DNA of 64,000 nt, taken from sequence record NC_004928.1; one strand, given 5' to 3'. The position numbers were made by a program, and so were the translations under genes. This DNA is from Escherichia phage RB69. The notes below the pieces were generated by a model. The model was not told the origin of the DNA. It worked only from the letters and a program-made list of their open reading frames with translations, and searched no databases. Below are positions 1-30,598 of the stretch, piece after piece (within the stretch, counting starts at the first letter, position 1; every line of letters starts with the position of its first letter).

Positions 1-2214
1 TTATTTGGCCGCTTCCACGGCCTTCATGAATTTAACGATTTGAGCGACCTGTTCTTTGGAAAGAGTACCACGTCGTCCCATGTATTCTGACACAATATGA
101 TAATTGGTTTCAAATTCAATAACCATTTTATCATCATTATCGTAAGCATTATCTTTAAGCTTATCGAAAATTTTAGCACACAATTCTAACTTCCTGTTCA
201 GGTCTCTGTTATCAGCACCTGTGAATCGATTCCATCCCCAGCGATTATTTACTGTTGAGAGTTTTGCAAAGTCTTTACTGATTTCTTTGTTCTTAGAGCT
301 AAAATATTTACTAAGGAAATTAAGCTCTTCATTACGAGTAATATGATTCAAATAAGGCTGTGCTCTACGACTTGGTGATACATACTCATCATAATCCACT
401 TTATCAATTAGCGTAATATAGTCATTAATTGATTTTTCGAACAAACATTCTACTTCACCAAGTTTACGAACTTTCTTAACAATCTGCGGACGGACTACAG
501 TGAACTCTTTAATACCTGACAAATCGGCAATACGAGTCAAGAAATTAGAATCATAGTTCAACCAACCTTTATCTGCGTCAAGACATTCAGCGTTAGAACG
601 ATTACGAATTACAACATAACCTTGAATCTCATCAGCTTTACCGGCCGGAATAAAGAGATCTTCTGATACCCAAACATCGTTTTCATTCTTAAAGAACCGA
701 TGAGCACTTGGGGATTTAGGACGAGGCTGCGATGAACGTTCTTTAACTTCAATCCATGGTTTAACTAATGCAAGAATTTCAGAGGTCTTATAAAATTTAA
801 GGCTATCACCAGCGAAAATAACCTTTAATCGTTCCAGAAGTTTCATTGCAACTTCATCTTCCGGGTTAATGAATAATACGCTACTACCCCGTCCGGAAGG
901 AACCTTATCAACGAGTGTTGATGCATCTGTGGAAGTCAAAGCATCGTTCAGAGCACGCATCATTGGTACGCGGCCTTTCACATCGTCAATAACAATATCA
1001 ATATGCTTACGACTAATACCTAGCAGGCTATTAATTGAAATAGTTGCAGACGAGCTTCCGCTTTCACGAATACGACGAAGACGTGGGTCTGAAACGATAT
1101 CATATACAACGCCAAGGTTGCACCATTCAGGTCCCATTTTAAAACGTTTGTACAACTCAGAATAAGTTAGCTGTTCTTTAGAATATTTCAGTGATTCAAT
1201 ATTAGAACCAGCTTTTTCCATGTATTTACGAGCAGAGTAACCAAGAGAATCTATTTCACGGAATACATGACGTGGATATTCACAATCAATCCATTTCTTA
1301 GAATCTTCAGCAAATAATTTTGCATCAATTTCTGCAACACGTTTATGGATATTTGCTACTGTACGTTTATCAAATGACAATGCTTCACGAGACGGGGCTA
1401 CATCTAGTTCACCCATAGGGAATTTAATATAAGCTGTAGTGCATCGCGTCATCATCCATGTTTGTTCTTTAATAACACTTCCGATTGGATATACAATACC
1501 ACCATAAACAGCCATGATATTACCACGTTCACCCCATGGAGCTTCCTTGGCTAAATAAACATCATCGAATTCAGGGAAGTATTTGATATCTTTAACACCA
1601 CGAACTTCTGCAATATCGCCGAGAGGACGCATAACATAAGCAATTTCGGATGCGAACTTTTCAAAATCTTCTGGGTTAACAGGCACAACTACTTCAACGC
1701 CGGTCCGGTCATCAGGACCCATCTTATCTACAAAGGTCGGCTTAATTTGTGGACCTGTGTCATCTTGGTAGATTACGTAACCACGAACTTCACCATTATG
1801 ATAAGAAGTAATGTTAAACGTATCAGTATATGCTAATGGAGCTTTAGAACCGAGCCCGAATCCACCAATGAAATCGTTACTCGATGTTTTAGTTGAAGCA
1901 AAATATGAGTTATAAATTCCTGGCTCTTCGTCATTACCTCGAATGGTGAAATCGCTCATACCCGGTCCAAAATCACGAACTACAAAACGTGGGTCTAAAC
2001 GACCTGGAGCCTGAACAATAAACTTATCAGTGCAACCGTTAAGAATTTGTCCATCGATACAGTTTGTAATTAATTCACGTACACAAGCCAATTCTTTGTT
2101 TGTATAAAGGTCATTAGACAAAATCTTATAAACTTTGCTATTGCCTTGAATAGTGAATGCTGTGCTCTTACCGCCTGAACCAATAATCGTTTCTTTAGCC
2201 GTTTCGATAATCAT
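1..2214 (-). CDS. rIIA: rIIA membrane-associated rapid-lysis/exclusion-protection protein
   Basis: 737-aa ORF, stop TAA at 1-3; size and position as T4 rIIA; ATPase-like glycine-rich motifs near the N-terminus. Confidence 0.85.
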   Translation of the reverse strand: MIIETAKETIIGSGGKSTAFTIQGNSKVYKILSNDLYTNKELACVRELITNCIDGQILNGCTDKFIVQAPGRLDPRFVVRDFGPGMSDFTIRGNDEEPGIYNSYFASTKTSSNDFIGGFGLGSKAPLAYTDTFNITSYHNGEVRGYVIYQDDTGPQIKPTFVDKMGPDDRTGVEVVVPVNPEDFEKFASEIAYVMRPLGDIAEVRGVKDIKYFPEFDDVYLAKEAPWGERGNIMAVYGGIVYPIGSVIKEQTWMMTRCTTAYIKFPMGELDVAPSREALSFDKRTVANIHKRVAEIDAKLFAEDSKKWIDCEYPRHVFREIDSLGYSARKYMEKAGSNIESLKYSKEQLTYSELYKRFKMGPEWCNLGVVYDIVSDPRLRRIRESGSSSATISINSLLGISRKHIDIVIDDVKGRVPMMRALNDALTSTDASTLVDKVPSGRGSSVLFINPEDEVAMKLLERLKVIFAGDSLKFYKTSEILALVKPWIEVKERSSQPRPKSPSAHRFFKNENDVWVSEDLFIPAGKADEIQGYVVIRNRSNAECLDADKGWLNYDSNFLTRIADLSGIKEFTVVRPQIVKKVRKLGEVECLFEKSINDYITLIDKVDYDEYVSPSRRAQPYLNHITRNEELNFLSKYFSSKNKEISKDFAKLSTVNNRWGWNRFTGADNRDLNRKLELCAKIFDKLKDNAYDNDDKMVIEFETNYHIVSEYMGRRGTLSKEQVAQIVKFMKAVEAAK

Positions 2215-2226
2215 GTTTTTCTCTCA

Positions 2227-2427
2227 TCACAAGTTACGTTTAAAAATTTCTGCCACTTCGAGAAGTTCTTCTTTAGTAGCTGTGTCGGTTTGTATTTTAT
2301 ATCGAATTTCTTTAAAGCGTTCTTTAAAGGACTCTGCTGATTCGATATCAAAAAATCTTTGGATAAGCCGGAATTCCCGGAGCACTGCTTTATCAAAAAG
2401 TTCCAAGTCCACGTTATATGTTCTCAT
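2227..2427 (-). CDS. rIIA.1: rIIA.1-like small protein
   Basis: 66-aa ORF immediately upstream of rIIA, as in T4. Confidence 0.55.
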   Translation of the reverse strand: MRTYNVDLELFDKAVLREFRLIQRFFDIESAESFKERFKEIRYKIQTDTATKEELLEVAEIFKRNL

Positions 2428-2519: not shown

Positions 2520-3620
2520 TTACGCTGTGAAGATTTTATCCCACATCGCAACAACCGCATCTCGGTTATACTTCTTCCATACTGCTTCAGCACGTTTAAC
2601 TCGAGCTTCGTATGTGTCAGTGAATTCTAATACAGCTTTTATGTAAAGCGCAACTACTTCTTTTTTAGGAGTAGAGGAATCAATTTCTACACGCACAGTA
2701 TCTGGGTCGTATTCAAATGTCGCATGAGGATAATCCTTAAAAACTAACTGGATTACAGGGACACCTTTAGAGATGGCTTCAATAGAACTATTCTCTACCG
2801 TACCTGTGTCAGGACACGTATTAATAAGTGCTTTAGCTGTTTTAAGACGTTCCATAATTTCACTATGTGGAGCATCAATAATAACAGGATATTTAGCTGG
2901 TGGTGCCCATTTACTAGGACAGTATCCTGCACCATTTTCGCCTAGTGCTTTAATCGCTTCAAGAGCAACATCAGTACGACGCATTTTAGTGTCATAGCGT
3001 TGTGCACTAATAATCAGATCAGTCGCCGGAAGAACTTCAGGTTTCTCATTCAAACAAATAACCGGATAATCTTCGGCTTCAAACAACGGATTTGCTCGCC
3101 AATAATCATAATCGATTTTGTCAGTCAGACCTGAAGTCATATAACAATATTTGCGTTCAAATTCACGGAAGGCTTTAGTAGGAGCATAACTCTTACCACC
3201 ATTCTTATGAATTTGAATAGTCTGGTCCCAAATTTGAACAATGCCACGAGATACCGGTTCAAATGGTGTTGCCATAAAATTCTTATGAACTTTAGAGAGA
3301 CCTGCGTCTTTAATTGCCTGAACGGTTAGTTTAGTCGGTTCCATAGTAACAACAAAATCGTATTCATGGATGCCGGCTAGTTCAACAATCTTACGAGCCA
3401 TAGTATAACTCATACCTAGACTGAATTTAGTCAGATGACCAACAGGATGATGATTAACCTTCCAATCACCAAATGTGTCATTATCAAAGCCAATATAATC
3501 AATATCAGCACCGATGGACACAAGATATTTCAACACATTTAAATGTACTGCTTCAAGACCACCTTGTACACGGTCAGGGTTAAATGGGACTGCGCGAGAT
3601 GGGATAAACATAACTTTCAT
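2520..3620 (-). CDS. candidate sugar transferase for DNA modification (position of T4 mobA)
   Basis: 366-aa ORF between rIIA.1 and gene 39; no endonuclease motifs; transferase-sized; function inferred from context. Confidence 0.4.
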   Translation of the reverse strand: MKVMFIPSRAVPFNPDRVQGGLEAVHLNVLKYLVSIGADIDYIGFDNDTFGDWKVNHHPVGHLTKFSLGMSYTMARKIVELAGIHEYDFVVTMEPTKLTVQAIKDAGLSKVHKNFMATPFEPVSRGIVQIWDQTIQIHKNGGKSYAPTKAFREFERKYCYMTSGLTDKIDYDYWRANPLFEAEDYPVICLNEKPEVLPATDLIISAQRYDTKMRRTDVALEAIKALGENGAGYCPSKWAPPAKYPVIIDAPHSEIMERLKTAKALINTCPDTGTVENSSIEAISKGVPVIQLVFKDYPHATFEYDPDTVRVEIDSSTPKKEVVALYIKAVLEFTDTYEARVKRAEAVWKKYNRDAVVAMWDKIFTA

Positions 3621-3632
3621 AATTAAGCCTTA

Positions 3633-3664
3633 TTAAAATTAAAATGAAGCTCCCGAAGGAGCTT
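3633..3664 (-). terminator. Intrinsic terminator, UUCG-tetraloop hairpin followed by U-rich tract
   Basis: plus-strand aagctcc-cgaa-ggagctt; on the minus-strand RNA the loop is UUCG and is followed by a U-rich run; overlaps the gene 39 stop. Confidence 0.5.
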
Positions 3665-5483
3665 AGGACATCCATTCTTTACGAAGTTCTGAATCATCAC
3701 CCATCAACATTTCAAAGAGTTCTTTCCAATTTTCAGGAAGTTTAACTACGTCGTACACAGGGTTCTGAATCATTTTACGATATTCTGACTTTTCAAGGGA
3801 GCCTAATCCCTTGATGTATCGAATACTATGCTTAGGCAGTGTATCTTTAGCTTCTTCATACTCAGCTACAGTATAAAACCATTTTTGAGTTTTGCCAATT
3901 TGTGCAATAATTACAGGCGTTTTAACAAAGCGAATACGTCCTTGTTCAAACAATTCAGGCCAATTACTAAAGAAAGCAAGCAAAGCCGGATAAATACTTC
4001 CAAGGCCGTCATGATCGGCATCGGTCATAATTGCAATATTACGATAGTTCGTATTCTCTGCCTTTTCACCAAGAATAAGACCTGTGATAGCACAGATATC
4101 AAAGAGCTCTTTGTTCTTCATCATATCAGCATATGACATACCCCAGCTATTCATCACCTTACCACGTAATGGGAATCCGCCGTGTAGTTCACGGTCACGA
4201 ACATCAATGAGATATCCAATTGCCGAATCACCTTCTGTTAAGAACAATGTCGTATCTGCATCTTTACCGCATTGGTTAGCTTTAATATGCTTATGAACCT
4301 TAGCTTTAGTTGCCTTTTTAGCTGCTTTAGTTTCTGCAGCCTTTTCTGCTGCCAATTTACGAGCTAATGCTGCTTCAACAATAGGCATAATCAAGGCTTC
4401 GTTTTTAAGAAGTGCCTGAGCAATTTTCTTAGCATCTAATTGGATATGATTACGAATATCACCATACGTTGACGTTAAACGTTCTTTAGTCTGAGAATCA
4501 AAACGCATGTTGCTCATATCTCTAATAAACATCAACATTGTGAGACATTCTTTAACACGAGCTTTAGTGACTTCAATACCCTTATATTTCTTTTTAATAC
4601 CAGGCAAAAGATGTTCGCAGATATCATCCATTACACATTCAACATGATGACCACCATTTTTAGTATGGATGTTATTCACATAAGTTAAATGACGGAAGCC
4701 ATCTGGTGATGTTGTGAATGCTATAGAGACTTTATCATTTTCTTGAATGATGTTATCTTCGCCAAATTGTTTAGCAAATCGTTTAAAATTACCATCAACC
4801 TTTTTACCATTAAATGTGAACTTGATATCAGGATAAACGACTGCCAATGTTTGAAGTCGGTCTAAAGTAATATCTAAATAAATTTGAGATAAATTATGCT
4901 CTTCAAATGAAGTGAAATCAGGAGTGAAGATTACTTTAGTTCCTTTACCTTTAGATTTCTTAGAAGACCATGATTTGTTTTCCATTCCGTTTGAACAGTT
5001 AACAGTGATTTCATTTTCGCCATCTGACGTGATGCCTGTAAACAACGTAGAGAAGATATTAGTTAAACTACTCCCGACGCCGTTCATACCACCGGTCTTG
5101 CGTTCAGAGTCATCGCCAAAGTTACCACCAGCCTTTGGAATAGTCCAGGCTGCTACAGGCCCAGGAATTTGTTCACCCGTTTGGTCGGTAACTAAACCTT
5201 GAGGAATACCACGTCCGTTATCTTCCACCGAAACTTGATTATTTTTAATTTGCACATCAATTTTATTTGCAAACTTAAATGATGTACGAATAGCTTCATC
5301 AACCGAGTTGTCAATAATCTCATCGATTAATTTAACCAGACCAAGGAACATTTCAACTGGTGAATAATTACCAACCAAAAACGGCTCGTGGGCTTCTTTA
5401 GCAGAAAGAACCAATATACATACCATACGGTTTCTTAATAATGGTTCTACATCTGACAATACCCTAATTTCATTTTTAATCAT
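3663..5483 (-). CDS. 39: DNA topoisomerase II large (ATPase) subunit, genes 39 and 60 fused
   Basis: 606-aa ORF, GyrB-like ATPase; length equals T4 gp39 plus gp60, so no split gene 60. Confidence 0.85.
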   Translation of the reverse strand: MIKNEIRVLSDVEPLLRNRMVCILVLSAKEAHEPFLVGNYSPVEMFLGLVKLIDEIIDNSVDEAIRTSFKFANKIDVQIKNNQVSVEDNGRGIPQGLVTDQTGEQIPGPVAAWTIPKAGGNFGDDSERKTGGMNGVGSSLTNIFSTLFTGITSDGENEITVNCSNGMENKSWSSKKSKGKGTKVIFTPDFTSFEEHNLSQIYLDITLDRLQTLAVVYPDIKFTFNGKKVDGNFKRFAKQFGEDNIIQENDKVSIAFTTSPDGFRHLTYVNNIHTKNGGHHVECVMDDICEHLLPGIKKKYKGIEVTKARVKECLTMLMFIRDMSNMRFDSQTKERLTSTYGDIRNHIQLDAKKIAQALLKNEALIMPIVEAALARKLAAEKAAETKAAKKATKAKVHKHIKANQCGKDADTTLFLTEGDSAIGYLIDVRDRELHGGFPLRGKVMNSWGMSYADMMKNKELFDICAITGLILGEKAENTNYRNIAIMTDADHDGLGSIYPALLAFFSNWPELFEQGRIRFVKTPVIIAQIGKTQKWFYTVAEYEEAKDTLPKHSIRYIKGLGSLEKSEYRKMIQNPVYDVVKLPENWKELFEMLMGDDSELRKEWMS

Positions 5484-5531: not shown

Positions 5532-5548
5532 AAAGGGCCGAAGCCCTT
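5527..5548 (-). terminator. Intrinsic terminator with UUCG tetraloop
   Basis: agggc-cgaa-gccct hairpin followed by UUUUUGCUUU on the minus-strand RNA. Confidence 0.55.
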
Positions 5549-24046: not shown

Positions 24047-24595
24047 TTAACGAGCCCATTTGATGATTTCTGTAATCAAATCATTACGTTCGCTTGCATT
24101 AAATCCTATAACTTTGTTAGCACCATCATGATTAAGTAATTGATACGTTTGGATTTCGTTATGAATTGCAAACTCTTCAAAATGTGAAATGACTGTATTA
24201 AAACCGAATGAAGACAAAGTAATAAGGTCGTCTTCAAAACTTTCAGTCATTTCGTTACGTGTTAAAATAATTGTGAACACATCATGGTTTTGGCAAAGAC
24301 GAACATAATCCTGTTCATAAACGTCAAGAACCGAGTCCGCATCTTGTCGAATACGTCCATAAACCCAGTTACTAATATATCCACGATCTAACAGATAAAT
24401 CTTAGTAGGGTCTAAATAATTCAACATCGTTTCGAAACAGCCAACTTCATTTCGAGACTTAACATCAAAACGTCCATCAACTGTTCGTTTAGGGAAATCA
24501 ATCTTTACATATCTTTCACTAATTTCCATTATGTCATTAATGAAAGTTGTTTTACCAGCATTATCCGGGCCATCTACTAAAATAATTTTAGCCAT
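24047..24595 (-). CDS. P-loop NTPase, small kinase-like protein
   Basis: 182 aa; Walker A GPDNAGKTT at the N-terminus; sits where T4 has beta-glucosyltransferase. Confidence 0.5.
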   Translation of the reverse strand: MAKIILVDGPDNAGKTTFINDIMEISERYVKIDFPKRTVDGRFDVKSRNEVGCFETMLNYLDPTKIYLLDRGYISNWVYGRIRQDADSVLDVYEQDYVRLCQNHDVFTIILTRNEMTESFEDDLITLSSFGFNTVISHFEEFAIHNEIQTYQLLNHDGANKVIGFNASERNDLITEIIKWAR

Positions 24596-24596
24596 T

Positions 24597-24947
24597 TTAT
24601 TCCTCGATTACGACATCTTCATATTTAGGTATATTATACGGCGAAGAAATTAAAGCGTTAAAGTAGATGAACTCACCAAGACCTGGATGGAATACTTCTT
24701 CAGGATTTTCGAAATATTGAATCTTCGGACGTCCTTTAAGAATTTGATAGTACTCAGTTTTAGTTGGTTTAAAAATTCGAATCAGCGCTTCTTCAGGATA
24801 CTTATTTCTGTCGAAGCTATTATTTGGATCGGTTATATAAAGCGGTTGGCCTAATTGAATTGCACATTCAACCACTTGTTCAAAACGATAGCACGGGTCA
24901 CTAATTCGAAATGGATGAAAAATACCATCTAGATGAATAGGAGCCAA
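24597..24947 (-). CDS. hypothetical protein
   Basis: 116-aa ORF. Confidence 0.45.
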   Translation of the reverse strand: MAPIHLDGIFHPFRISDPCYRFEQVVECAIQLGQPLYITDPNNSFDRNKYPEEALIRIFKPTKTEYYQILKGRPKIQYFENPEEVFHPGLGEFIYFNALISSPYNIPKYEDVVIEE

Positions 24948-24948
24948 A

Positions 24949-25497
24949 TCACACTACAAGACGCTGCATGATGGAAGGACGTATAACTTTCTGCGTTACG
25001 ATAATCTTATTACCATCTGCACCTGCGTTAACCAGCACTTCTTTTTGACGTTCATTCAACACAGTAGTTTGAAGTGAACGATTAACCGACAACATATCGG
25101 TTTTTAAGAATTCGTCAATATAAAAACGTGGTTTATTAGGGTCTGCAGTGATATTGAAAATGAATTCCACATCAAAAGCGCCGTCATATCCAGTGATATC
25201 TGTGATTAGAAAATCACAATCATAATAAGCAATTAATGAATCAACCACAAATTCATTTTCAGACCAGAAATATTTACGAGTGTTATACGCGTTATCTTTA
25301 TACCATAATGGAACAAACTTAAATTCCGGGAAAAGACGTTCGCATTCTTTAATATCAGATGCATTACGTGGATATGTAATCACATCACCTGGATTAGCAC
25401 GGTGCAAATGAAGTTGGAAGTTGCCATCCTTAAGGATAGAATACTGTCCAGTTTCATAAGACCGCATACTCAAGATAGGTACGCGGAAAATAGCCAT
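24949..25497 (-). CDS. hypothetical protein
   Basis: 182-aa ORF. Confidence 0.45.
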   Translation of the reverse strand: MAIFRVPILSMRSYETGQYSILKDGNFQLHLHRANPGDVITYPRNASDIKECERLFPEFKFVPLWYKDNAYNTRKYFWSENEFVVDSLIAYYDCDFLITDITGYDGAFDVEFIFNITADPNKPRFYIDEFLKTDMLSVNRSLQTTVLNERQKEVLVNAGADGNKIIVTQKVIRPSIMQRLVV

Positions 25498-26213
25498 TAG
25501 TCAAGGAATCCTTTAACATAATCAAAATCACGTTCAAACACATGGGCACTTACCATGGTATGAGTATAATCACCAACTTCTACACCACATTCGTTAGCGA
25601 TATAATGAAGTAATTTTCCTTGGAGATAAAAATCCAACTGCATAACAACAGCACAGTTCTGGGAACGCATATGGCAGTGGGTATAAAGCTTACCATCACG
25701 AATATAATAAGTCACTGAGTCAGTACATGGATATTCAAGCGTTTCGTCCGAATCAAGCAAAGCCTGATCAGAACTTTCTAGAATTTGGAACACAACTCTT
25801 CGGGAGTTAGGCTTCTCTTTAAGTTCTTTTAGAAGAGCTGGTAATTGGGCCGCAATGCGAGGACCGTAGAAAGTGTTGAAGTTTGCAGGCAAAGCGTCTG
25901 ATTTAGGTTTAGAAATAAATTTAGCAACGTTAGGATATGCCTTAAACGCTTCTTCTGCATCAGTACCACCAGAAATCATAAACTTCCAGAAGTCTTCGGC
26001 ATATTCATAAGAGATGCGGTTAATACGTGGGTCGGTCATTTTGAATGATGATGGAGTGTCAACAACTACTGTCATAGACCCAATTTCATTACAACGTCCA
26101 ATACGAGAATCAGTTACGAATTCCGGGTTTTCTAAAATTTCACGATTGACTGCTTTAAATGCGGTTTGAAAATCTGCGGCTTTGATATATTTCATTGTGT
26201 TATGTTTTCCCAT
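25497..26213 (-). CDS. 42: deoxypyrimidine-nucleotide hydroxymethylase (gp42-like, thymidylate-synthase fold), divergent
   Basis: 238 aa; catalytic region EYPCTDSVTYYIRDGKLYTHCHMRSQN aligns with T4 gp42 FMCTNTVQYLIRD...MRSND. Confidence 0.6.
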   Translation of the reverse strand: MGKHNTMKYIKAADFQTAFKAVNREILENPEFVTDSRIGRCNEIGSMTVVVDTPSSFKMTDPRINRISYEYAEDFWKFMISGGTDAEEAFKAYPNVAKFISKPKSDALPANFNTFYGPRIAAQLPALLKELKEKPNSRRVVFQILESSDQALLDSDETLEYPCTDSVTYYIRDGKLYTHCHMRSQNCAVVMQLDFYLQGKLLHYIANECGVEVGDYTHTMVSAHVFERDFDYVKGFLD

Positions 26214-26255
26214 GTTTACCTCAATACAATTTATTATATACTCAATTCATAAAGC

Positions 26256-26495
26256 TTATTTGAATTTCTTAGCGATGTTGATATAACGTAAAGCTTCAGC
26301 ATCGATATTTCCAAGAACACTATGAAGAAATGCATCAGCGTAGTATTCCAATTGAACAGGTTCTTTAATCACTTTAGCCGCTTTAGTTTCAAACAGGCCC
26401 ATCAGGGCCTTTTTAAGAATTTGTTCGTTGCTGTTAATTTTCATAGTCAAAATCTCTTCATTAAGTTGGTGGTTAAAAGTTTTTCTAGAAATCAT
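26256..26495 (-). CDS. hypothetical protein
   Basis: 79-aa ORF. Confidence 0.4.
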   Translation of the reverse strand: MISRKTFNHQLNEEILTMKINSNEQILKKALMGLFETKAAKVIKEPVQLEYYADAFLHSVLGNIDAEALRYINIAKKFK

Positions 26496-27661
26496 TCTGG
26501 GTACCTCAAAGCGTCATCAGAGTTAGTTACATCAATAATAGATATAGAATTTTCTGATAACCCATTTTTAGATAACTGACGTTTATAATATCTTTCACAA
26601 TATGTACACGTCGTCCCGCAGATTTCATTAGCACAATCGAAATCTGGATGTCTGAACCACCTTTTTTCTAAAAAGCCATCTAACAAAGAGGTTTCAATAT
26701 TTACTGTATGTGAAAACTCAGTTTCGTTTTCAAGAGTGAAAATAGTCTCTAAAGGCTTCCACAGTTCTAACAAATTACCTTCAAACTTTTCAGAAGCGTA
26801 TGCTTCAAGAACTTTCAAAATGTAGTCTGTGCTACCTGTACGTCCTGAAACTTTGAATTGAGTGATACCAATATCATTATAAAGTTTCAAATCTTGAGGA
26901 CGAACAAAACGAGTTCTCAACCAGTTAAATGGGTCTGTATCACGAGCTTTAATACAGTGCTGCATAGGATATCCGTTTAAGGATTTAGCATCATCAGCTG
27001 TAACATCAGTACTATGGAAAATATAGCAAGAGTCACGATAGCTACAATGTGTTGTATACCCTTTACCAGCATTAGAACAGAACTCATTTACAAGAACTTC
27101 AAATATTATATTGTTCTTATTGCAAAACTCTGCTGCACGCTTCAGGAAAGAAACTGAACGGTTTTTATGAATTCCACAGCAGACCTTTTTGATATTATAT
27201 TGGTCATGCAAGTATTTGATTTGAGTTACAGCATCGACATGTAGAATTGTTGAAACTTCAATCTCAATGTCTTTATTGACTTCACGAACAATTTCCATAA
27301 CAACAGGGTTAGCGATAGTAATACGCCATACGCCTATTGACCAAAGATACTGAACATAATCCTGAATAGCTTTCTTCTTCCACTCAACTAGTTCTCTTTT
27401 TGAACCAGGATTTATCGTGTTGAGTGTATAGTTAAAGCAAATACCTAATTCGTTACAACGTTTAACGTAATCTTCTAACATCTTTTTGTCAACGTCAGGA
27501 AGCCTAAAATCAGGTCTGGCTGCTACAAAAGCCATTTCTCTTGTAGAGCCGTATACTTCGTTTATCAAGCTATTAGGATAAGTTTTATTGAGCTCTACGA
27601 TTTTATCAAGAAGAGCTAAATCAAAATTCGTTCCGATTTTAAAAGTATTCATTTTTTGCAT
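26492..27661 (-). CDS. U32-family-like protein with C-terminal Cys cluster
   Basis: 389 aa; N-terminal pattern EVYGS...FVAARPDF...LNT and cysteine-rich segments; weak, motif-level only. Confidence 0.4.
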   Translation of the reverse strand: MQKMNTFKIGTNFDLALLDKIVELNKTYPNSLINEVYGSTREMAFVAARPDFRLPDVDKKMLEDYVKRCNELGICFNYTLNTINPGSKRELVEWKKKAIQDYVQYLWSIGVWRITIANPVVMEIVREVNKDIEIEVSTILHVDAVTQIKYLHDQYNIKKVCCGIHKNRSVSFLKRAAEFCNKNNIIFEVLVNEFCSNAGKGYTTHCSYRDSCYIFHSTDVTADDAKSLNGYPMQHCIKARDTDPFNWLRTRFVRPQDLKLYNDIGITQFKVSGRTGSTDYILKVLEAYASEKFEGNLLELWKPLETIFTLENETEFSHTVNIETSLLDGFLEKRWFRHPDFDCANEICGTTCTYCERYYKRQLSKNGLSENSISIIDVTNSDDALRYPE

Positions 27662-27707
27662 CTCGCGTTAATTGATGCGATGGTTTTTGCAGGTCTTACT
27701 TAAATTA

Positions 27708-28109
27708 TTATAGATTCGGTTTATATGATTTAAATGTTTCGAATTCGCCTTTATTCATAAGAGCTTTGAATTCGTCAGGACGCATAGCTTTGTCGTCGAT
27801 AATCCAATCATATACTGGTTTATGTGTTAGCAAATTATGGTACTTCAAGCCAATGTTTGCCAAGTTCTGAATCAGACTTGGGAGAATGTCAATTGCTATA
27901 CGTCCAGGACCTACTGACTTCATACCGCGAGCAGTGTAAAGCGTTATGGTATGCCCTGCATCATACAGAGCATTAATGGCAGACACCATTTCGACGTCTG
28001 GTTTGAAGTTCACGTAATCACGATTGTTATTCCACTCTGTTATACAATCATCGACATCAAAACAAAGATTAAGCATGTTTTCTACATGGTGCATTAGATT
28101 CGTTCCCAT
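27708..28109 (-). CDS. HAD-superfamily phosphatase (small, KdsC-like)
   Basis: 133 aa; HAD motif I FDVDDCIT; true start may be Met12 near 28076. Confidence 0.55.
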   Translation of the reverse strand: MGTNLMHHVENMLNLCFDVDDCITEWNNNRDYVNFKPDVEMVSAINALYDAGHTITLYTARGMKSVGPGRIAIDILPSLIQNLANIGLKYHNLLTHKPVYDWIIDDKAMRPDEFKALMNKGEFETFKSYKPNL

Positions 28110-29134
28110 TGATGAGTGATATCGCCACCGATTGGACGATAAGAAACACCAGTTTCTTTATCGGTTAGTACCCATTTACCAGGATTTTTTGTAATCAGAG
28201 TAGCCGTTACAGGTTCTGCTACGTCATAACTAATAGAGCCGTCTTGAAGTACACGGCCCATGTTACGTAATTGCTTAGTCAGAAGTTCCATACCTTTATA
28301 ATACGCGGCTACCGCTTTAAGTGGATTATTCTTGAAATAACCACCTAATGCAATCCAGATAATTGCTACAGCCAAATGATGATACTCGTTAAACGAACTC
28401 ATCTTTCCATATTTGTAAACTAATGGATTGATGTTAATAGTCACATTACAAGTTGTTTCGTCAATAGTAAACTGTCCCCAGGTCGGATTAGCGTTGAATT
28501 CATCATAACCTGAAACGGCATAAAGCACTTTAGCTTCATCGTACAATTTTGGTCCGTAAATCTTGGTTTCGCCAAAATATCCACGAGGGTCGATAAACTT
28601 GACTTCGCCGTTATCAGTAATCATAGTATTACTGAAGTTCGGGTCACCGTGAATAACAGAGTACTGTCCCTGAGAACGGTTATGATAACGAATAAGGTGT
28701 TCTAAAGCTTGTTTCAGCATTGGCTTCAGACGTCCAATCTTAGTGTAGTTCACATGTGTGATTTTACCAAATGAATCAATCAATGGTTGAATGCTTTCAC
28801 AACGATCAATAACTTTCGTATAGAATTCTTTAGTGAAATCACGACGAACAGTTTCAGGACTTACAAAATAAGTGTCTGTGCTGAATTTCAGTGCATCTAA
28901 AATTGCATCAACAATTTGTGGACGAGCAAGACTTGATTTGGATTTAATATATTCAAATGCCGGCTTACCTTTAATGCGTTCCATTTCAAAGTTATTTTCA
29001 TTAACAGAAACTAACTGAGGAACTGAATCTGATTTCACTTTAAGATACCATGAAATCTCATCTTTCTGAAGAGCTCGACCATGTTCGGTTAATGCGAATT
29101 TAGTTACAGTTTCTTCACCAATTTCGAACTGCAT
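28094..29134 (-). CDS. sugar kinase of the aminoglycoside-phosphotransferase / choline-kinase fold
   Basis: catalytic loop HGDPNFSN; ORF track begins at a GTG (29191); ATG at Met20 used here; start uncertain. Confidence 0.55.
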   Translation of the reverse strand: MQFEIGEETVTKFALTEHGRALQKDEISWYLKVKSDSVPQLVSVNENNFEMERIKGKPAFEYIKSKSSLARPQIVDAILDALKFSTDTYFVSPETVRRDFTKEFYTKVIDRCESIQPLIDSFGKITHVNYTKIGRLKPMLKQALEHLIRYHNRSQGQYSVIHGDPNFSNTMITDNGEVKFIDPRGYFGETKIYGPKLYDEAKVLYAVSGYDEFNANPTWGQFTIDETTCNVTININPLVYKYGKMSSFNEYHHLAVAIIWIALGGYFKNNPLKAVAAYYKGMELLTKQLRNMGRVLQDGSISYDVAEPVTATLITKNPGKWVLTDKETGVSYRPIGGDITHQWERI

Positions 29135-29780
29135 TAAAACTACGATTAAGTTCACGAACTTCATGAGCTTTTTCAAGTTTAGGCATATCACCTAAATCAA
29201 TTAGATTCATAAGCTCTGATTTATTGAATGCACTGCCGTAAAGGAATTCTACGAAATCACGTCCTTTGCAGTATTCGTGAATTTCCTCATCAGTAGAACC
29301 CATGTAGAATTCCCAGTCTTTGAACTGATAAATTCCTACAACGTTACCGCCTGTTGAACCTACGTTAGTGATATTTTCACCATCGAAATTATATCGACAT
29401 TCATCACCCTTAACATAGATTGCGTTAACATTCCAAGACCATGAACCAAAATCAGGAATAATATCACACCAGTTAACAATTACGTTATGGCCATCTAAAT
29501 CTTTGTATAATTTAGCAAGAGCATAAGCAGAACCATACGCTTCATCAACTGTACGAATAGTCACATTGAACCCTTCTTGCTCACAATAAGCTCGAACAGT
29601 TTCAGCAAATTTTGAATGAACTACTACAATAATTTCATCTGCGCCAAGGTCAGAATAAATTGTATACAAATTGCTCAGAATAGTGTCTTGTTTATAGTTA
29701 ACAAGCACCTTAGGAATATGATGCGTTATTGGATACAAACGAGTTGCTAATCCAGCACCAAGAATAACAGCTTTTTTCAT
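29115..29780 (-). CDS. sugar-1-phosphate nucleotidyltransferase
   Basis: N-terminal AVILGAGLATRL motif; start at Met6 after GAGGA. Confidence 0.65.
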   Translation of the reverse strand: MKKAVILGAGLATRLYPITHHIPKVLVNYKQDTILSNLYTIYSDLGADEIIVVVHSKFAETVRAYCEQEGFNVTIRTVDEAYGSAYALAKLYKDLDGHNVIVNWCDIIPDFGSWSWNVNAIYVKGDECRYNFDGENITNVGSTGGNVVGIYQFKDWEFYMGSTDEEIHEYCKGRDFVEFLYGSAFNKSELMNLIDLGDMPKLEKAHEVRELNRSFNAVRNW

Positions 29781-29822
29781 GTTGAAGATCCTCATTGGTA
29801 AGTAGGTGTATTGTACACTATT

Positions 29823-29966
29823 CTAGTTAAAGCATTCATACTTTGCTTGTAGTCCAATCATAATCCATCCAATTACAAGTGTTGGAATCATTACTGGAGC
29901 CGTTAAGCTCCAGTAGATAGTCATGACAAGCATCAATAGTAAAAGTCCTATTGTTATTGCTTTCAT
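29823..29966 (-). CDS. small hydrophobic membrane protein
   Basis: 47 aa translated by hand (MKAITIGLLLLMLVMTIYWSL...); ATG overlaps the upstream TGA as ATGA. Confidence 0.35.
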   Translation of the reverse strand: MKAITIGLLLLMLVMTIYWSLTAPVMIPTLVIGWIMIGLQAKYECFN

Positions 29967-30598
29967 TGTTCGCCTCGTAACATAGCACCTAGTGCACCGC
30001 CTGGATGGAACTTAAGGAAGTCATTAGAGGTAAATCCACGTTCAGACGAAAGGTTGATAGCAAACGTATCGATAAGCGCTAACAACAATGTAGTGGACAT
30101 AGTCGGAGCCAGAGAATTCTCATCAACCTCTACCGCGATGCCTGTACAGAAAGAGTAATCAAAAAGGGCTTCATTTTCTTGTGGAATGTCTGGGTTACAA
30201 TGCAACAGAATCTGTTTGACGTTCGGTCGAATCATTTTAAGATGCTTAGCCACGCCTATCATTTCTTCAGTTTTACCAGAACGACTAATATGAATCAACA
30301 CGTCATTAGGCGCAATAAATCCTGCATCACCGTGAGAATAATGCCCAGTGTTCAAGTACATACTCGGGATACCGAGTGAAGCAAATGTCTCAGAAGCTTT
30401 AGTTGCAATATTAGCATTCTTACCAACACCTGTAATAATTACTCGGCTTTCATAATTACTAAGTCCCGGGCGTCGAAGAGTTTCTAGAATAGCATTATAA
30501 CGAGCAGGGTTTTGACTAATTACTTTGGCCATAGCGGCCAAAGAAGAAGCTTGTTTTATGATTGCGTCAATAGCGATAGTAATAGGAGTAGTTTTCAT
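29963..30598 (-). CDS. SIS-domain sugar-phosphate isomerase (arabinose-5-phosphate isomerase-like)
   Basis: 211 aa; SIS motifs VIITGVGKNANIATKASETF and HISRSGKTEE. Confidence 0.7.
   Translation of the reverse strand: MKTTPITIAIDAIIKQASSLAAMAKVISQNPARYNAILETLRRPGLSNYESRVIITGVGKNANIATKASETFASLGIPSMYLNTGHYSHGDAGFIAPNDVLIHISRSGKTEEMIGVAKHLKMIRPNVKQILLHCNPDIPQENEALFDYSFCTGIAVEVDENSLAPTMSTTLLLALIDTFAINLSSERGFTSNDFLKFHPGGALGAMLRGEQ

What the first reader, a model, noticed from the sequence alone, without database searches (positions are those of the whole stretch)
2520..3620. Transferase-sized ORF in place of T4 mobA, possibly the missing DNA glycosyltransferase
In T4 the rIIA.1 to 39 interval carries gene 60 and the mobA homing endonuclease. 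Here topoisomerase is one fused ORF and the interval holds a single 366-aa protein with no endonuclease motifs. The sugar-nucleotide cluster 20 kb away has no obvious transferase, so this ORF is the best candidate for the enzyme that puts the sugar on DNA. A terminator-like hairpin (3633..3664) lies just upstream of it.
Basis: inference. Interest (0 to 1): 0.7.

Follow-up and report, generated by a model that had tools for sequence, protein, structure and literature searches.

The report
Known phage DNA arabinosyltransferase (RB69 gp3)
The ORF is real and is a sugar-adding enzyme for phage DNA, but it is the already described RB69 ORF003c/gp3 arabinosyltransferase, and it most likely adds the second arabinose rather than being the only "missing" transferase.

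Summary
The 366-aa ORF at 2520..3620 (-) is real. It sits between rIIA.1 and a fused gene 39/60 topoisomerase, with a C(UUCG)G hairpin just upstream.

It is not new. The window matches the GenBank coordinates of phage RB69, and the ORF is RB69 ORF003c/gp3. Thomas et al. proposed it as the DNA arabinosyltransferase in 2018. Bas46 annotates its copy as "putative hmC-arabinosyltransferase". A 98%-identical protein from phage HY126 has solved structures, one with UDP bound (PDB 9IQZ, 9IR0). My model hits these, then GT-B enzymes.

- **The cluster does hold a transferase.** A second GT-B protein lies beside the thymidylate-synthase-like gene. Pfam misses it, and a one-base insertion splits it in this sequence.
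- **The acceptor is not hmC.** Published chemistry shows arabinose on 5-hydroxycytosine.

The cluster transferase occurs in 347 phage records and the ORF003c family in only 210. Copy number tracks sugar number: none in mono-arabinosylated phages, one in di-arabinosylated Mosigvirus, two in the Acinetobacter group that includes tri-arabinosylated DLP3. The best reading is a UDP-arabinofuranose-dependent enzyme that adds the second arabinose. Already known; low interest.

The parts
2520..3620 (-). 366-aa GT-B glycosyltransferase, equal to RB69 ORF003c/gp3. It is the proposed second DNA arabinosyltransferase.
   Evidence: ORF. PHROG 8302 at E = 1.9e-222. PDB 9iqz/9ir0 at 98% identity. GT-B fold hits. 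Homologues in 210 phage records.
3647..3664 (-). Stem-loop with 7 base pairs and a UUCG tetraloop, followed by a T-rich tail to about 3637. It is terminator-like or an RNA-stabilising hairpin at the end of gene 39, 26 nt upstream of the ORF's ATG.
   Evidence: The centroid fold keeps only this stem. A close relative annotates it as a terminator.
3628..3631 (-). Shine-Dalgarno-like AAGG, 7 nt upstream of the ATG at 3620.
   Evidence: Read directly from the sequence.
3663..5483 (-). Upstream neighbour: topoisomerase II large subunit, a fusion of the T4 gp39 and gp60 equivalents.
2227..2427 (-). Downstream neighbour: rIIA.1-like small ORF. rIIA follows at 1..2214.
   Evidence: Relatives annotate it as rIIA.1.
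24597..25497 (-). Partner transferase 'GT1' (RB69 gp46:47), the proposed first, base-proximal arabinosyltransferase. One extra T near 24953 splits it here into 182-aa and 116-aa ORFs. In relatives it is a single 299-aa ORF.
   Evidence: AF2 model pLDDT 93.9. GT-B fold hits, best to MshA 3c4q. Found in 347 phage records.
25497..26213 (-). Thymidylate-synthase homologue, published as the 5-hydroxy-dCMP synthase (RB69 gp48). It makes the acceptor base.
   Evidence: Pfam Thymidylat_synt at E = 2.4e-15. Function from PMC13326640.
28094..29795 (-). Bifunctional sugar-1-P nucleotidyltransferase and kinase (RB69 ORF53_52c). It makes the UDP-arabinose donor. It is split here by the documented C-29116 sequence error.
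   Evidence: PMC6024577. PMC13326640.
29963..30598 (-). SIS-domain arabinose-5-phosphate isomerase-like protein (RB69 gp55).
   Evidence: Pfam SIS at E = 1e-10. PMC13326640.
27708..28109 (-). Small protein described in the literature as HAD-like (RB69 gp51; homologue of HY126 AfhF phosphatase). No Pfam hit here.
   Evidence: no Pfam hit. Assignment from PMC13326640.
24047..24595 (-). P-loop nucleotide-kinase-like protein (RB69 gp45).
   Evidence: Sequence begins MAKIILVDGPDNAGKTT. Only weak P-loop-type Pfam hits for the KAW3E185 orthologue (AAA_14 E = 0.039, MMR_HSR1 E = 0.095). Annotated as thymidylate kinase in JK45.

Best explanation
The ORF encodes a soluble GT-B glycosyltransferase that uses a UDP-sugar, most likely UDP-arabinofuranose made by the cluster at 24-30.6 kb. 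It acts on phage DNA after replication.

Its most likely reaction is to add a second arabinose onto cytosines that already carry one arabinose on the 5-hydroxyl. That first sugar is installed by the cluster transferase gp46:47. The product is the di-arabinosylated 5-hydroxycytosine that dominates in Mosigvirus DNA and shields it from nucleases and other DNA-targeting defences.

**Shown here or in a database:** the ORF, its GT-B fold, UDP binding by a 98%-identical protein, the phyletic pattern, and the genomic linkage.

**Shown in the literature:** RB69 DNA carries mono- and di-arabinosyl-5-hydroxycytosine. Two transferases of phage DLP3, in the cluster position of the 41-43%-identical KARL-1 homologues, together add arabinose from UDP-Araf to RB69 DNA in vitro.

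**Inferred:** that this particular enzyme performs step 2, and its linkage chemistry.
For: **Fold.** Foldseek of my model gives 9ir0_A 'phage HY126 glycosyltransferase with UDP' and 9iqz at 98% identity (E about 1e-51, TM 0.71). The next hits are PimA, BshA, MshA, WaaG and other GT-B enzymes, with 209 hits at E < 1e-3.

**Sequence identity to the solved protein.**

**Linkage.** Acinetobacter phage KARL-1 has two tandem homologues, 41-43% identical to this ORF and 57% to each other. They directly follow SIS, NTP-transferase/kinase, HAD, ThyA-like, GT1 and kinase genes.

**Phyletic pattern.**
- GT1 is in 347 phage records. These include Klebsiella, Serratia, Yersinia, Proteus and Shewanella Thanatos phages, and JS98-like phages.
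- The ORF003c family is in 210 records only: Mosigvirus with one copy, and Acinetobacter phages with two places in every listed record, 266 places in all.
- The high-identity counts match: 154 ORF003c records, two of them short fragments, against 152 GT1 records.

**Published chemistry matches copy number.**
- Mono-arabinosylated, no detectable copy: Thanatos and LC53. For LC53 this rests on no Serratia-phage record matching; LC53 itself was not located.
- Di-arabinosylated, one copy: RB69, NP and Bas46 (single copy seen). Bas47 is also reported as di-arabinosylated, but its gene content was not checked.
- Tri-arabinosylated, two copies: DLP3, from its published locus order rather than a search here.
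- Sources: PMC13326640, PMC13390438, and the bioRxiv preprint.

**Biochemistry of homologues.** DLP3 gp76 plus gp77 add a third arabinose to RB69 DNA from UDP-Araf.

**Published assignment.** Lee et al. label RB69 gp3 'beta-arabinosyltransferase 2'. [quoted passage not shown]
Against: - No biochemical or genetic result for RB69 gp3 itself was available to me. The two papers most likely to contain it were not held: He et al. 2026 in Nat Chem Biol, and Mahler et al. 2025 in Cell Host Microbe.
- My own model of the protein has only moderate confidence (pLDDT 60.6; residues 116-188 are below 50).
- In DLP3, neither homologue was active alone and neither acted on 5hoC DNA. A simple scheme of one enzyme per sugar may therefore be too neat.
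- Equating DLP3 gp76/gp77 with the ORF003c family rests on gene order matching KARL-1. I did not compare the sequences.
- No Pfam or NCBIfam glycosyltransferase profile matches the protein.
Confidence: 0.75

Rival explanations
1. It is the first, base-proximal transferase, which puts arabinose directly on the modified cytosine. This is the original 2018 proposal and the first reader's idea.
For: Thomas et al. 2018 proposed ORF003c as 'the' arabinosyltransferase on HHpred evidence. Bas46 annotates it as 'putative hmC-arabinosyltransferase'. The first step has not been reconstituted in vitro: DLP3 transferases tested singly showed no activity on 5hoC DNA.
Against: About 137 phage records have the cluster with GT1 but no ORF003c relative at E <= 0.01. 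One is Thanatos-2; phage Thanatos is reported to be arabinosylated, so GT1 suffices for the first sugar. GT1 is a confident GT-B protein immediately next to the base-hydroxylating enzyme. The 2018 paper did not recognise gp46:47 as a transferase because the gene is split in GenBank.
Confidence: 0.12
2. It is active only as an obligate partner of another transferase (GT1), rather than as an independent step-2 enzyme. It could even have a partly non-catalytic role.
For: In DLP3, the third arabinose was added only when both gp76 and gp77 were present.
Against: RB69 has only one member of this family. The HY126 protein crystallised on its own with UDP. The putative catalytic and phosphate-binding positions are invariant across the family: G20, R208, R214 and E281.
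Confidence: 0.1
3. It glycosylates something other than DNA, such as a host envelope glycan, a protein or a small molecule. On this view it only happens to sit in a variable region of the genome.
For: The closest structural neighbours act on lipids, thiols and LPS: PimA, BshA, MshA and WaaG. In Mosigvirus the gene lies 20 kb from the sugar cluster.
Against: It co-occurs strictly with the arabinose cluster. Its homologues are embedded in that cluster in Acinetobacter phages. Family members act on DNA in vitro. The family is confined to these phages, with 11 representatives among 1.84 billion proteins.
Confidence: 0.03

Closest known systems
RB69 ORF003c / gp3 (NP_861693), its Mosigvirus orthologues (Bas46 bas46_0103) and the phage HY126 glycosyltransferase (PDB 9IQZ, 9IR0)
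   Same: It is the same protein. The length is 366 aa and the locus is identical (rIIA.1 - ORF - fused gene 39). Orthologues are 96-99.7% identical, and the crystallised HY126 protein is 98% identical.
   Different: Nothing of substance. The window appears to be the RB69 GenBank sequence itself.
Acinetobacter phage tandem arabinosyltransferases (DLP3 gp76/gp77; KARL1_208/209)
   Same: They belong to the same narrow family at 41-43% identity over the full length. They have the same invariant residues and serve the same pathway. They transfer arabinose from UDP-Araf to already arabinosylated DNA.
   Different: They occur as two paralogues inside the cluster and yield a tri-arabinosyl product. 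RB69 has a single copy, displaced to the rIIA-39 interval, and a di-arabinosyl product.
RB69 gp46:47 ('GT1'), the cluster-encoded arabinosyltransferase
   Same: It also has a GT-B fold and serves the same pathway.
   Different: There is no detectable sequence relationship (hhalign probability 0.2%). It is shorter (299 aa) and far more widespread. It is proposed to add the first sugar.
T4 alpha- and beta-glucosyltransferases
   Same: They are phage GT-B enzymes that use a UDP-sugar to glycosylate a modified cytosine in DNA after replication, as a counter-defence.
   Different: The sugar is glucose rather than arabinofuranose. The acceptor is the hydroxymethyl group of hmC, not a sugar on 5-hydroxycytosine. 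No sequence similarity was detected (no Pfam hit), and the genomic location differs.
Bacterial GT4-type GT-B enzymes (PimA, MshA, BshA, WaaG)
   Same: They are the best structural neighbours after the phage protein itself. The PDB depositors call the phage protein 'subfamily 4-like'.
   Different: Identity is 12-15%. There is no Pfam profile match. The acceptors are lipids, inositol phosphate or LPS.

Membership tests
ORF003c / PHROG 8302 family of phage DNA arabinosyltransferases | Full-length sequence match to the family profile | tested here: met
   PHROG 8302 at E = 1.9e-222, residues 1-366 of 366. Mosigvirus orthologues are at least 95.6% identical and Acinetobacter homologues 41-43%.
ORF003c / PHROG 8302 family of phage DNA arabinosyltransferases | Co-occurrence with the 5-hydroxy-dCMP synthase and UDP-arabinose cluster | tested here: met
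   The cluster is present in the window. Record counts match. The genes are adjacent in KARL-1. JK45 also has the cluster.
ORF003c / PHROG 8302 family of phage DNA arabinosyltransferases | Arabinosyl transfer from UDP-Araf to arabinosylated DNA | not testable with these tools
   Reported only for DLP3 gp76 plus gp77 (PMC13326640).
GT-B fold glycosyltransferase superfamily | Two Rossmann-like domains with an inter-domain cleft | tested here: met
   Foldseek against PDB gave 209 hits at E < 1e-3, all inspected top hits being GT-B proteins. The solved 98%-identical structures are the top hits at TM 0.71. The model itself has only pLDDT 60.6.
GT-B fold glycosyltransferase superfamily | Binds a nucleotide-sugar donor | tested here: met
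   PDB entry 9ir0 is titled 'phage HY126 glycosyltransferase with UDP' and is 98% identical. This rests on the database title, not on my own inspection of coordinates.
CAZy GT4 / Pfam Glycos_transf_1 and Glyco_trans_4-like | Match to the family sequence profile | tested here: not met
   No Pfam family at E <= 10 and no NCBIfam family. A family-profile search of PDB finds only 9iqz.
CAZy GT4 / Pfam Glycos_transf_1 and Glyco_trans_4-like | EX7E motif and R-x5-K phosphate-binding motif | tested here: inconclusive
   The family alignment has invariant R208 and R214 with x5 spacing and invariant E281, but the upstream acid is E276, spaced x4 rather than x7. The motif definitions are recalled from memory.
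T4 alpha-/beta-glucosyltransferase families | Sequence-profile match to the AGT or BGT families | tested here: not met
   No Pfam hit. Only fold-level similarity; Thomas 2018 reports an HHpred hit to 1XV5.
HNH / GIY-YIG homing endonuclease (the T4 mobA position) | Endonuclease domain | tested here: not met
   No Pfam hit. The fold is GT-B.

The most novel reading that the evidence does not exclude
gp3 might not be a simple chain extender. It could act only in a complex with the cluster transferase. Alternatively, it could add the second arabinose selectively by sequence context. Mono- and di-arabinosylated cytosines coexist at about 1:4 in the Mosigvirus NP, so selective addition would create a patterned rather than uniform DNA coat. 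Nothing I ran excludes this, but nothing points to it beyond the incomplete conversion and the DLP3 two-enzyme requirement.
Probability: 0.1. Interest if true: 0.4.

Novelty: already known. Interest (0 to 1): 0.12.

Why it matters
DNA arabinosylation protects Mosigvirus and related phages from restriction enzymes, some CRISPR systems and DNA glycosylases. These phages are used in phage-therapy collections. Knowing which enzyme adds which sugar matters for engineering these phages and for predicting which bacterial defences will stop them.

For this scan the value is mainly negative. The gene was proposed in 2018, has a solved structure, and is assigned in 2025-2026 papers. The useful corrections are these:
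- The cluster has its own transferase.
- The base is 5-hydroxycytosine.
- Several apparent split genes in this window are most likely sequence errors.

Tried and rejected
- **Pfam and NCBIfam on the ORF:** no hits. Sequence profiles cannot classify it.
- **Profile search of PDB with the family alignment:** found only 9iqz, plus two weak hits with E above 0.01.
- **Homologue searches:** only 5 clusters at 90% identity and 11 representatives at 50%. The alignment was therefore shallow and the AlphaFold model mediocre. I did not refold it, because a 98%-identical solved structure exists.
- **hhalign of the ORF003c family against the GT1 family:** no relationship. The two transferases are not recent paralogues.
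- **Hairpin energy against shuffles:** not significant. The hairpin rests on its position, its conservation and the pattern scan, not on thermodynamics.
- **A promoter between gene 39 and the ORF:** the scan found none on the coding strand in that gap. The gene is probably read through from upstream. I did not pursue this further.
- **Literature:** searches for 9IQZ/9IR0 found nothing relevant. He et al. 2026 and Mahler et al. 2025 are not held.
- **JK45 as a possible counter-example:** rejected, because it has the complete arabinose cluster despite its Tequatrovirus label.

Full report
**What is there.** The window has a 366-aa ATG-initiated ORF at 2520..3620 on the minus strand. Upstream lies a 606-aa topoisomerase ORF (3663..5483). 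Its residues 1-475 align to T4 gp39 and residues 494-606 to T4 gp60, so the two T4 genes are fused here. Downstream are an rIIA.1-like ORF (2227..2427) and rIIA (1..2214).

A stem of 7 base pairs with a UUCG tetraloop lies at 3664..3647, followed by a T-rich run. It begins inside the gene 39 stop codon. The close relative KAW3E185 annotates it as a terminator. Its folding energy alone is not exceptional. An AAGG lies 7 nt before the ATG.

**What phage this is.** The nearest records are Mosigvirus phages (JS09, O157 typing phages, Bas46, NicPhage) at about 98% DNA identity. The window's coordinates match those Thomas et al. give for the RB69 GenBank entry. ORF053c ends at 29115, next to the erroneous C-29116 they describe. 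The window also carries the gp46/gp47 split that Lee et al. attribute to a sequencing error. I infer that the window is the start of the RB69 GenBank sequence, and that the ORF is RB69 ORF003c/gp3.

**What the protein is.** Pfam and NCBIfam give nothing. PHROGs gives a full-length match to an 'unknown function' family, 8302.

The PDB holds a 98%-identical protein in two entries, 9IQZ and 9IR0. My AlphaFold model used a six-sequence alignment and reached pLDDT 60.6. Foldseek matched it to '9ir0: phage HY126 glycosyltransferase with UDP' and to 9iqz (E about 1e-51, TM 0.71). The next hits were PimA, BshA, MshA, WaaG, tetrahydrobiopterin glucosyltransferase and other GT-B enzymes, with 209 hits at E < 1e-3.

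The family is very narrow. It has 5 clusters at 90% identity and 11 representatives at 50% identity among 1.84 billion proteins.

**The cluster does contain a transferase.** Between uvsX and DNA polymerase (24047..30598) Pfam finds:
- a thymidylate-synthase homologue;
- a U32-like protein;
- a nucleotidyltransferase and a kinase-like segment;
- a SIS isomerase.

However, the two ORFs at 24949..25497 and 24597..24947 form one 299-aa gene in the relative KAW3E185. They are separated here only by one extra T.

The intact protein has more than 138 homologue clusters. With a 29-sequence alignment it folds at pLDDT 93.9 into a GT-B fold. The best hit is the retaining transferase MshA, and 112 hits have E < 1e-3. 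Lee et al. reached the same conclusion for RB69 gp46:47. The two transferases show no sequence relationship.

**Which step this enzyme performs.** A tblastn search of 50,697 phage records finds the cluster transferase in 347 records. These cover Mosigvirus, JS98-like, Klebsiella, Serratia, Yersinia, Proteus, Edwardsiella, Shewanella Thanatos and Acinetobacter phages.

The ORF003c family is found in only 210 records, even at E <= 0.01:
- 154 Mosigvirus-type records at 95% identity or more, two of which are short fragments. This compares with 152 high-identity records for the cluster transferase.
- 56 records below 60% identity, 55 of them Acinetobacter phages; every such record listed has two places.

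In Acinetobacter phage KARL-1 the two copies lie in tandem directly after SIS, NTP-transferase/kinase, HAD, ThyA-like, GT1 and kinase genes. They are 57% identical to each other and 41-43% identical to the window protein.

Published chemistry lines up with copy number:

| Arabinoses per cytosine | Phages | ORF003c-family copies |
|---|---|---|
| One | Thanatos, LC53 | None detected |
| One and two | RB69, NicPhage, Bas46 | One |
| Three | DLP3 | Two |

The zero for LC53 rests on no Serratia-phage record matching at E <= 0.01; I did not locate LC53 itself. Bas47 is also reported as di-arabinosylated, but I did not check its gene content. The two copies for DLP3 come from its published locus order, not from a search here.

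DLP3 gp76 and gp77 together add a third arabinose to RB69 DNA from UDP-arabinofuranose in vitro. By gene order they correspond to the two KARL-1 homologues. I infer this from the published locus order and did not compare the sequences.

The best reading is therefore that gp46:47 installs the first sugar and this ORF adds the second. [quoted passage not shown]

**The acceptor base.** Lee et al. and the Durham Collection paper show that the arabinose is ether-linked to 5-hydroxycytosine. That base is made as 5-hydroxy-dCMP by the thymidylate-synthase homologue. The earlier 'arabinosyl-hmC' assignment was wrong.

**What remains open.** I could find no direct enzymology or genetics for RB69 gp3 itself. 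He et al. 2026 and Mahler et al. 2025, which probably contain it, are not in the library. A secondary source says that deleting 'the arabinosyltransferase Aat' in Bas46 sensitised the phage to a plasmid-borne defence. From memory, Aat denotes the chain-extending transferase, but I could not verify this.

The first step has not been reconstituted in vitro, and the DLP3 homologues needed each other. A cooperative mechanism therefore cannot be excluded.

**Comparison with known systems.** Functionally this is the arabinose counterpart of the T-even DNA glucosyltransferases. More precisely, it resembles the second-sugar enzymes of T2 and T6 that build gentiobiose. It shares the GT-B fold with them but no detectable sequence similarity. 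It is a member of the ORF003c/PHROG 8302 family. It does not pass sequence-profile membership of Pfam GT4-type families, although the structure depositors call it 'subfamily 4-like'.

**Verdict.** The finding is already in the literature and in GenBank annotation. Interest is low.

Noticed in passing
window 24597..25497 (-), extra T near 24953: The cluster glycosyltransferase (RB69 gp46:47) is split into 182-aa and 116-aa ORFs by a single inserted T. In KAW3E185 it is one 299-aa ORF. This is most likely a sequencing error in the deposited sequence, not biology.
   Followed up: yes
window 28094..29795 (-), overlap near 29115-29191: The bifunctional nucleotidyltransferase/kinase appears as two overlapping ORFs of 226 and 365 aa. 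Relatives have one 561-aa ORF. This matches the C-29116 error documented by Thomas et al. 2018.
   Followed up: partly
window about 5344..5445 (-), 5' end of gene 39: Residues 14-47 of the topoisomerase read 'PLLRNRMVCILVLS...', where Bas46 and T4 have the conserved 'HIKKRSGMYIGSS...'. The DNA alignment shows several small indels that shift and then restore the frame. This is probably a third stretch of sequence error in this window.
   Followed up: partly
L003 (Shigella phage JK45, NC_054940.1 2520..4123): JK45 has the full 366-aa gene plus a separately annotated 136-aa ORF that duplicates its C-terminal part in tandem. This may be a real partial duplication or an assembly artefact. JK45 is filed under Tequatrovirus, yet it has Mosigvirus gene order and the arabinose cluster.
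   Followed up: partly
window 26492..27661 (-): A peptidase U32-like protein of 389 aa (Pfam E = 7e-11) sits in the middle of the arabinosylation cluster. Its role in the pathway is not established. Lee et al. only suggest a sugar or heterocycle reductase.
   Followed up: no
proteins P0121, P0125: Distant homologues of the cluster transferase (340-380 aa, 37-39% identity) occur on metagenomic contigs of about 350 kb. The first-step enzyme may therefore extend to jumbo phages or other large elements outside the T4-like group.
   Followed up: no
L006 5532..5543 (equivalent to window about 5535..5546): A second hairpin is annotated as a terminator in the relative KAW3E185, immediately upstream of gene 39. 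Short hairpins therefore bracket gene 39 on both sides.
   Followed up: no
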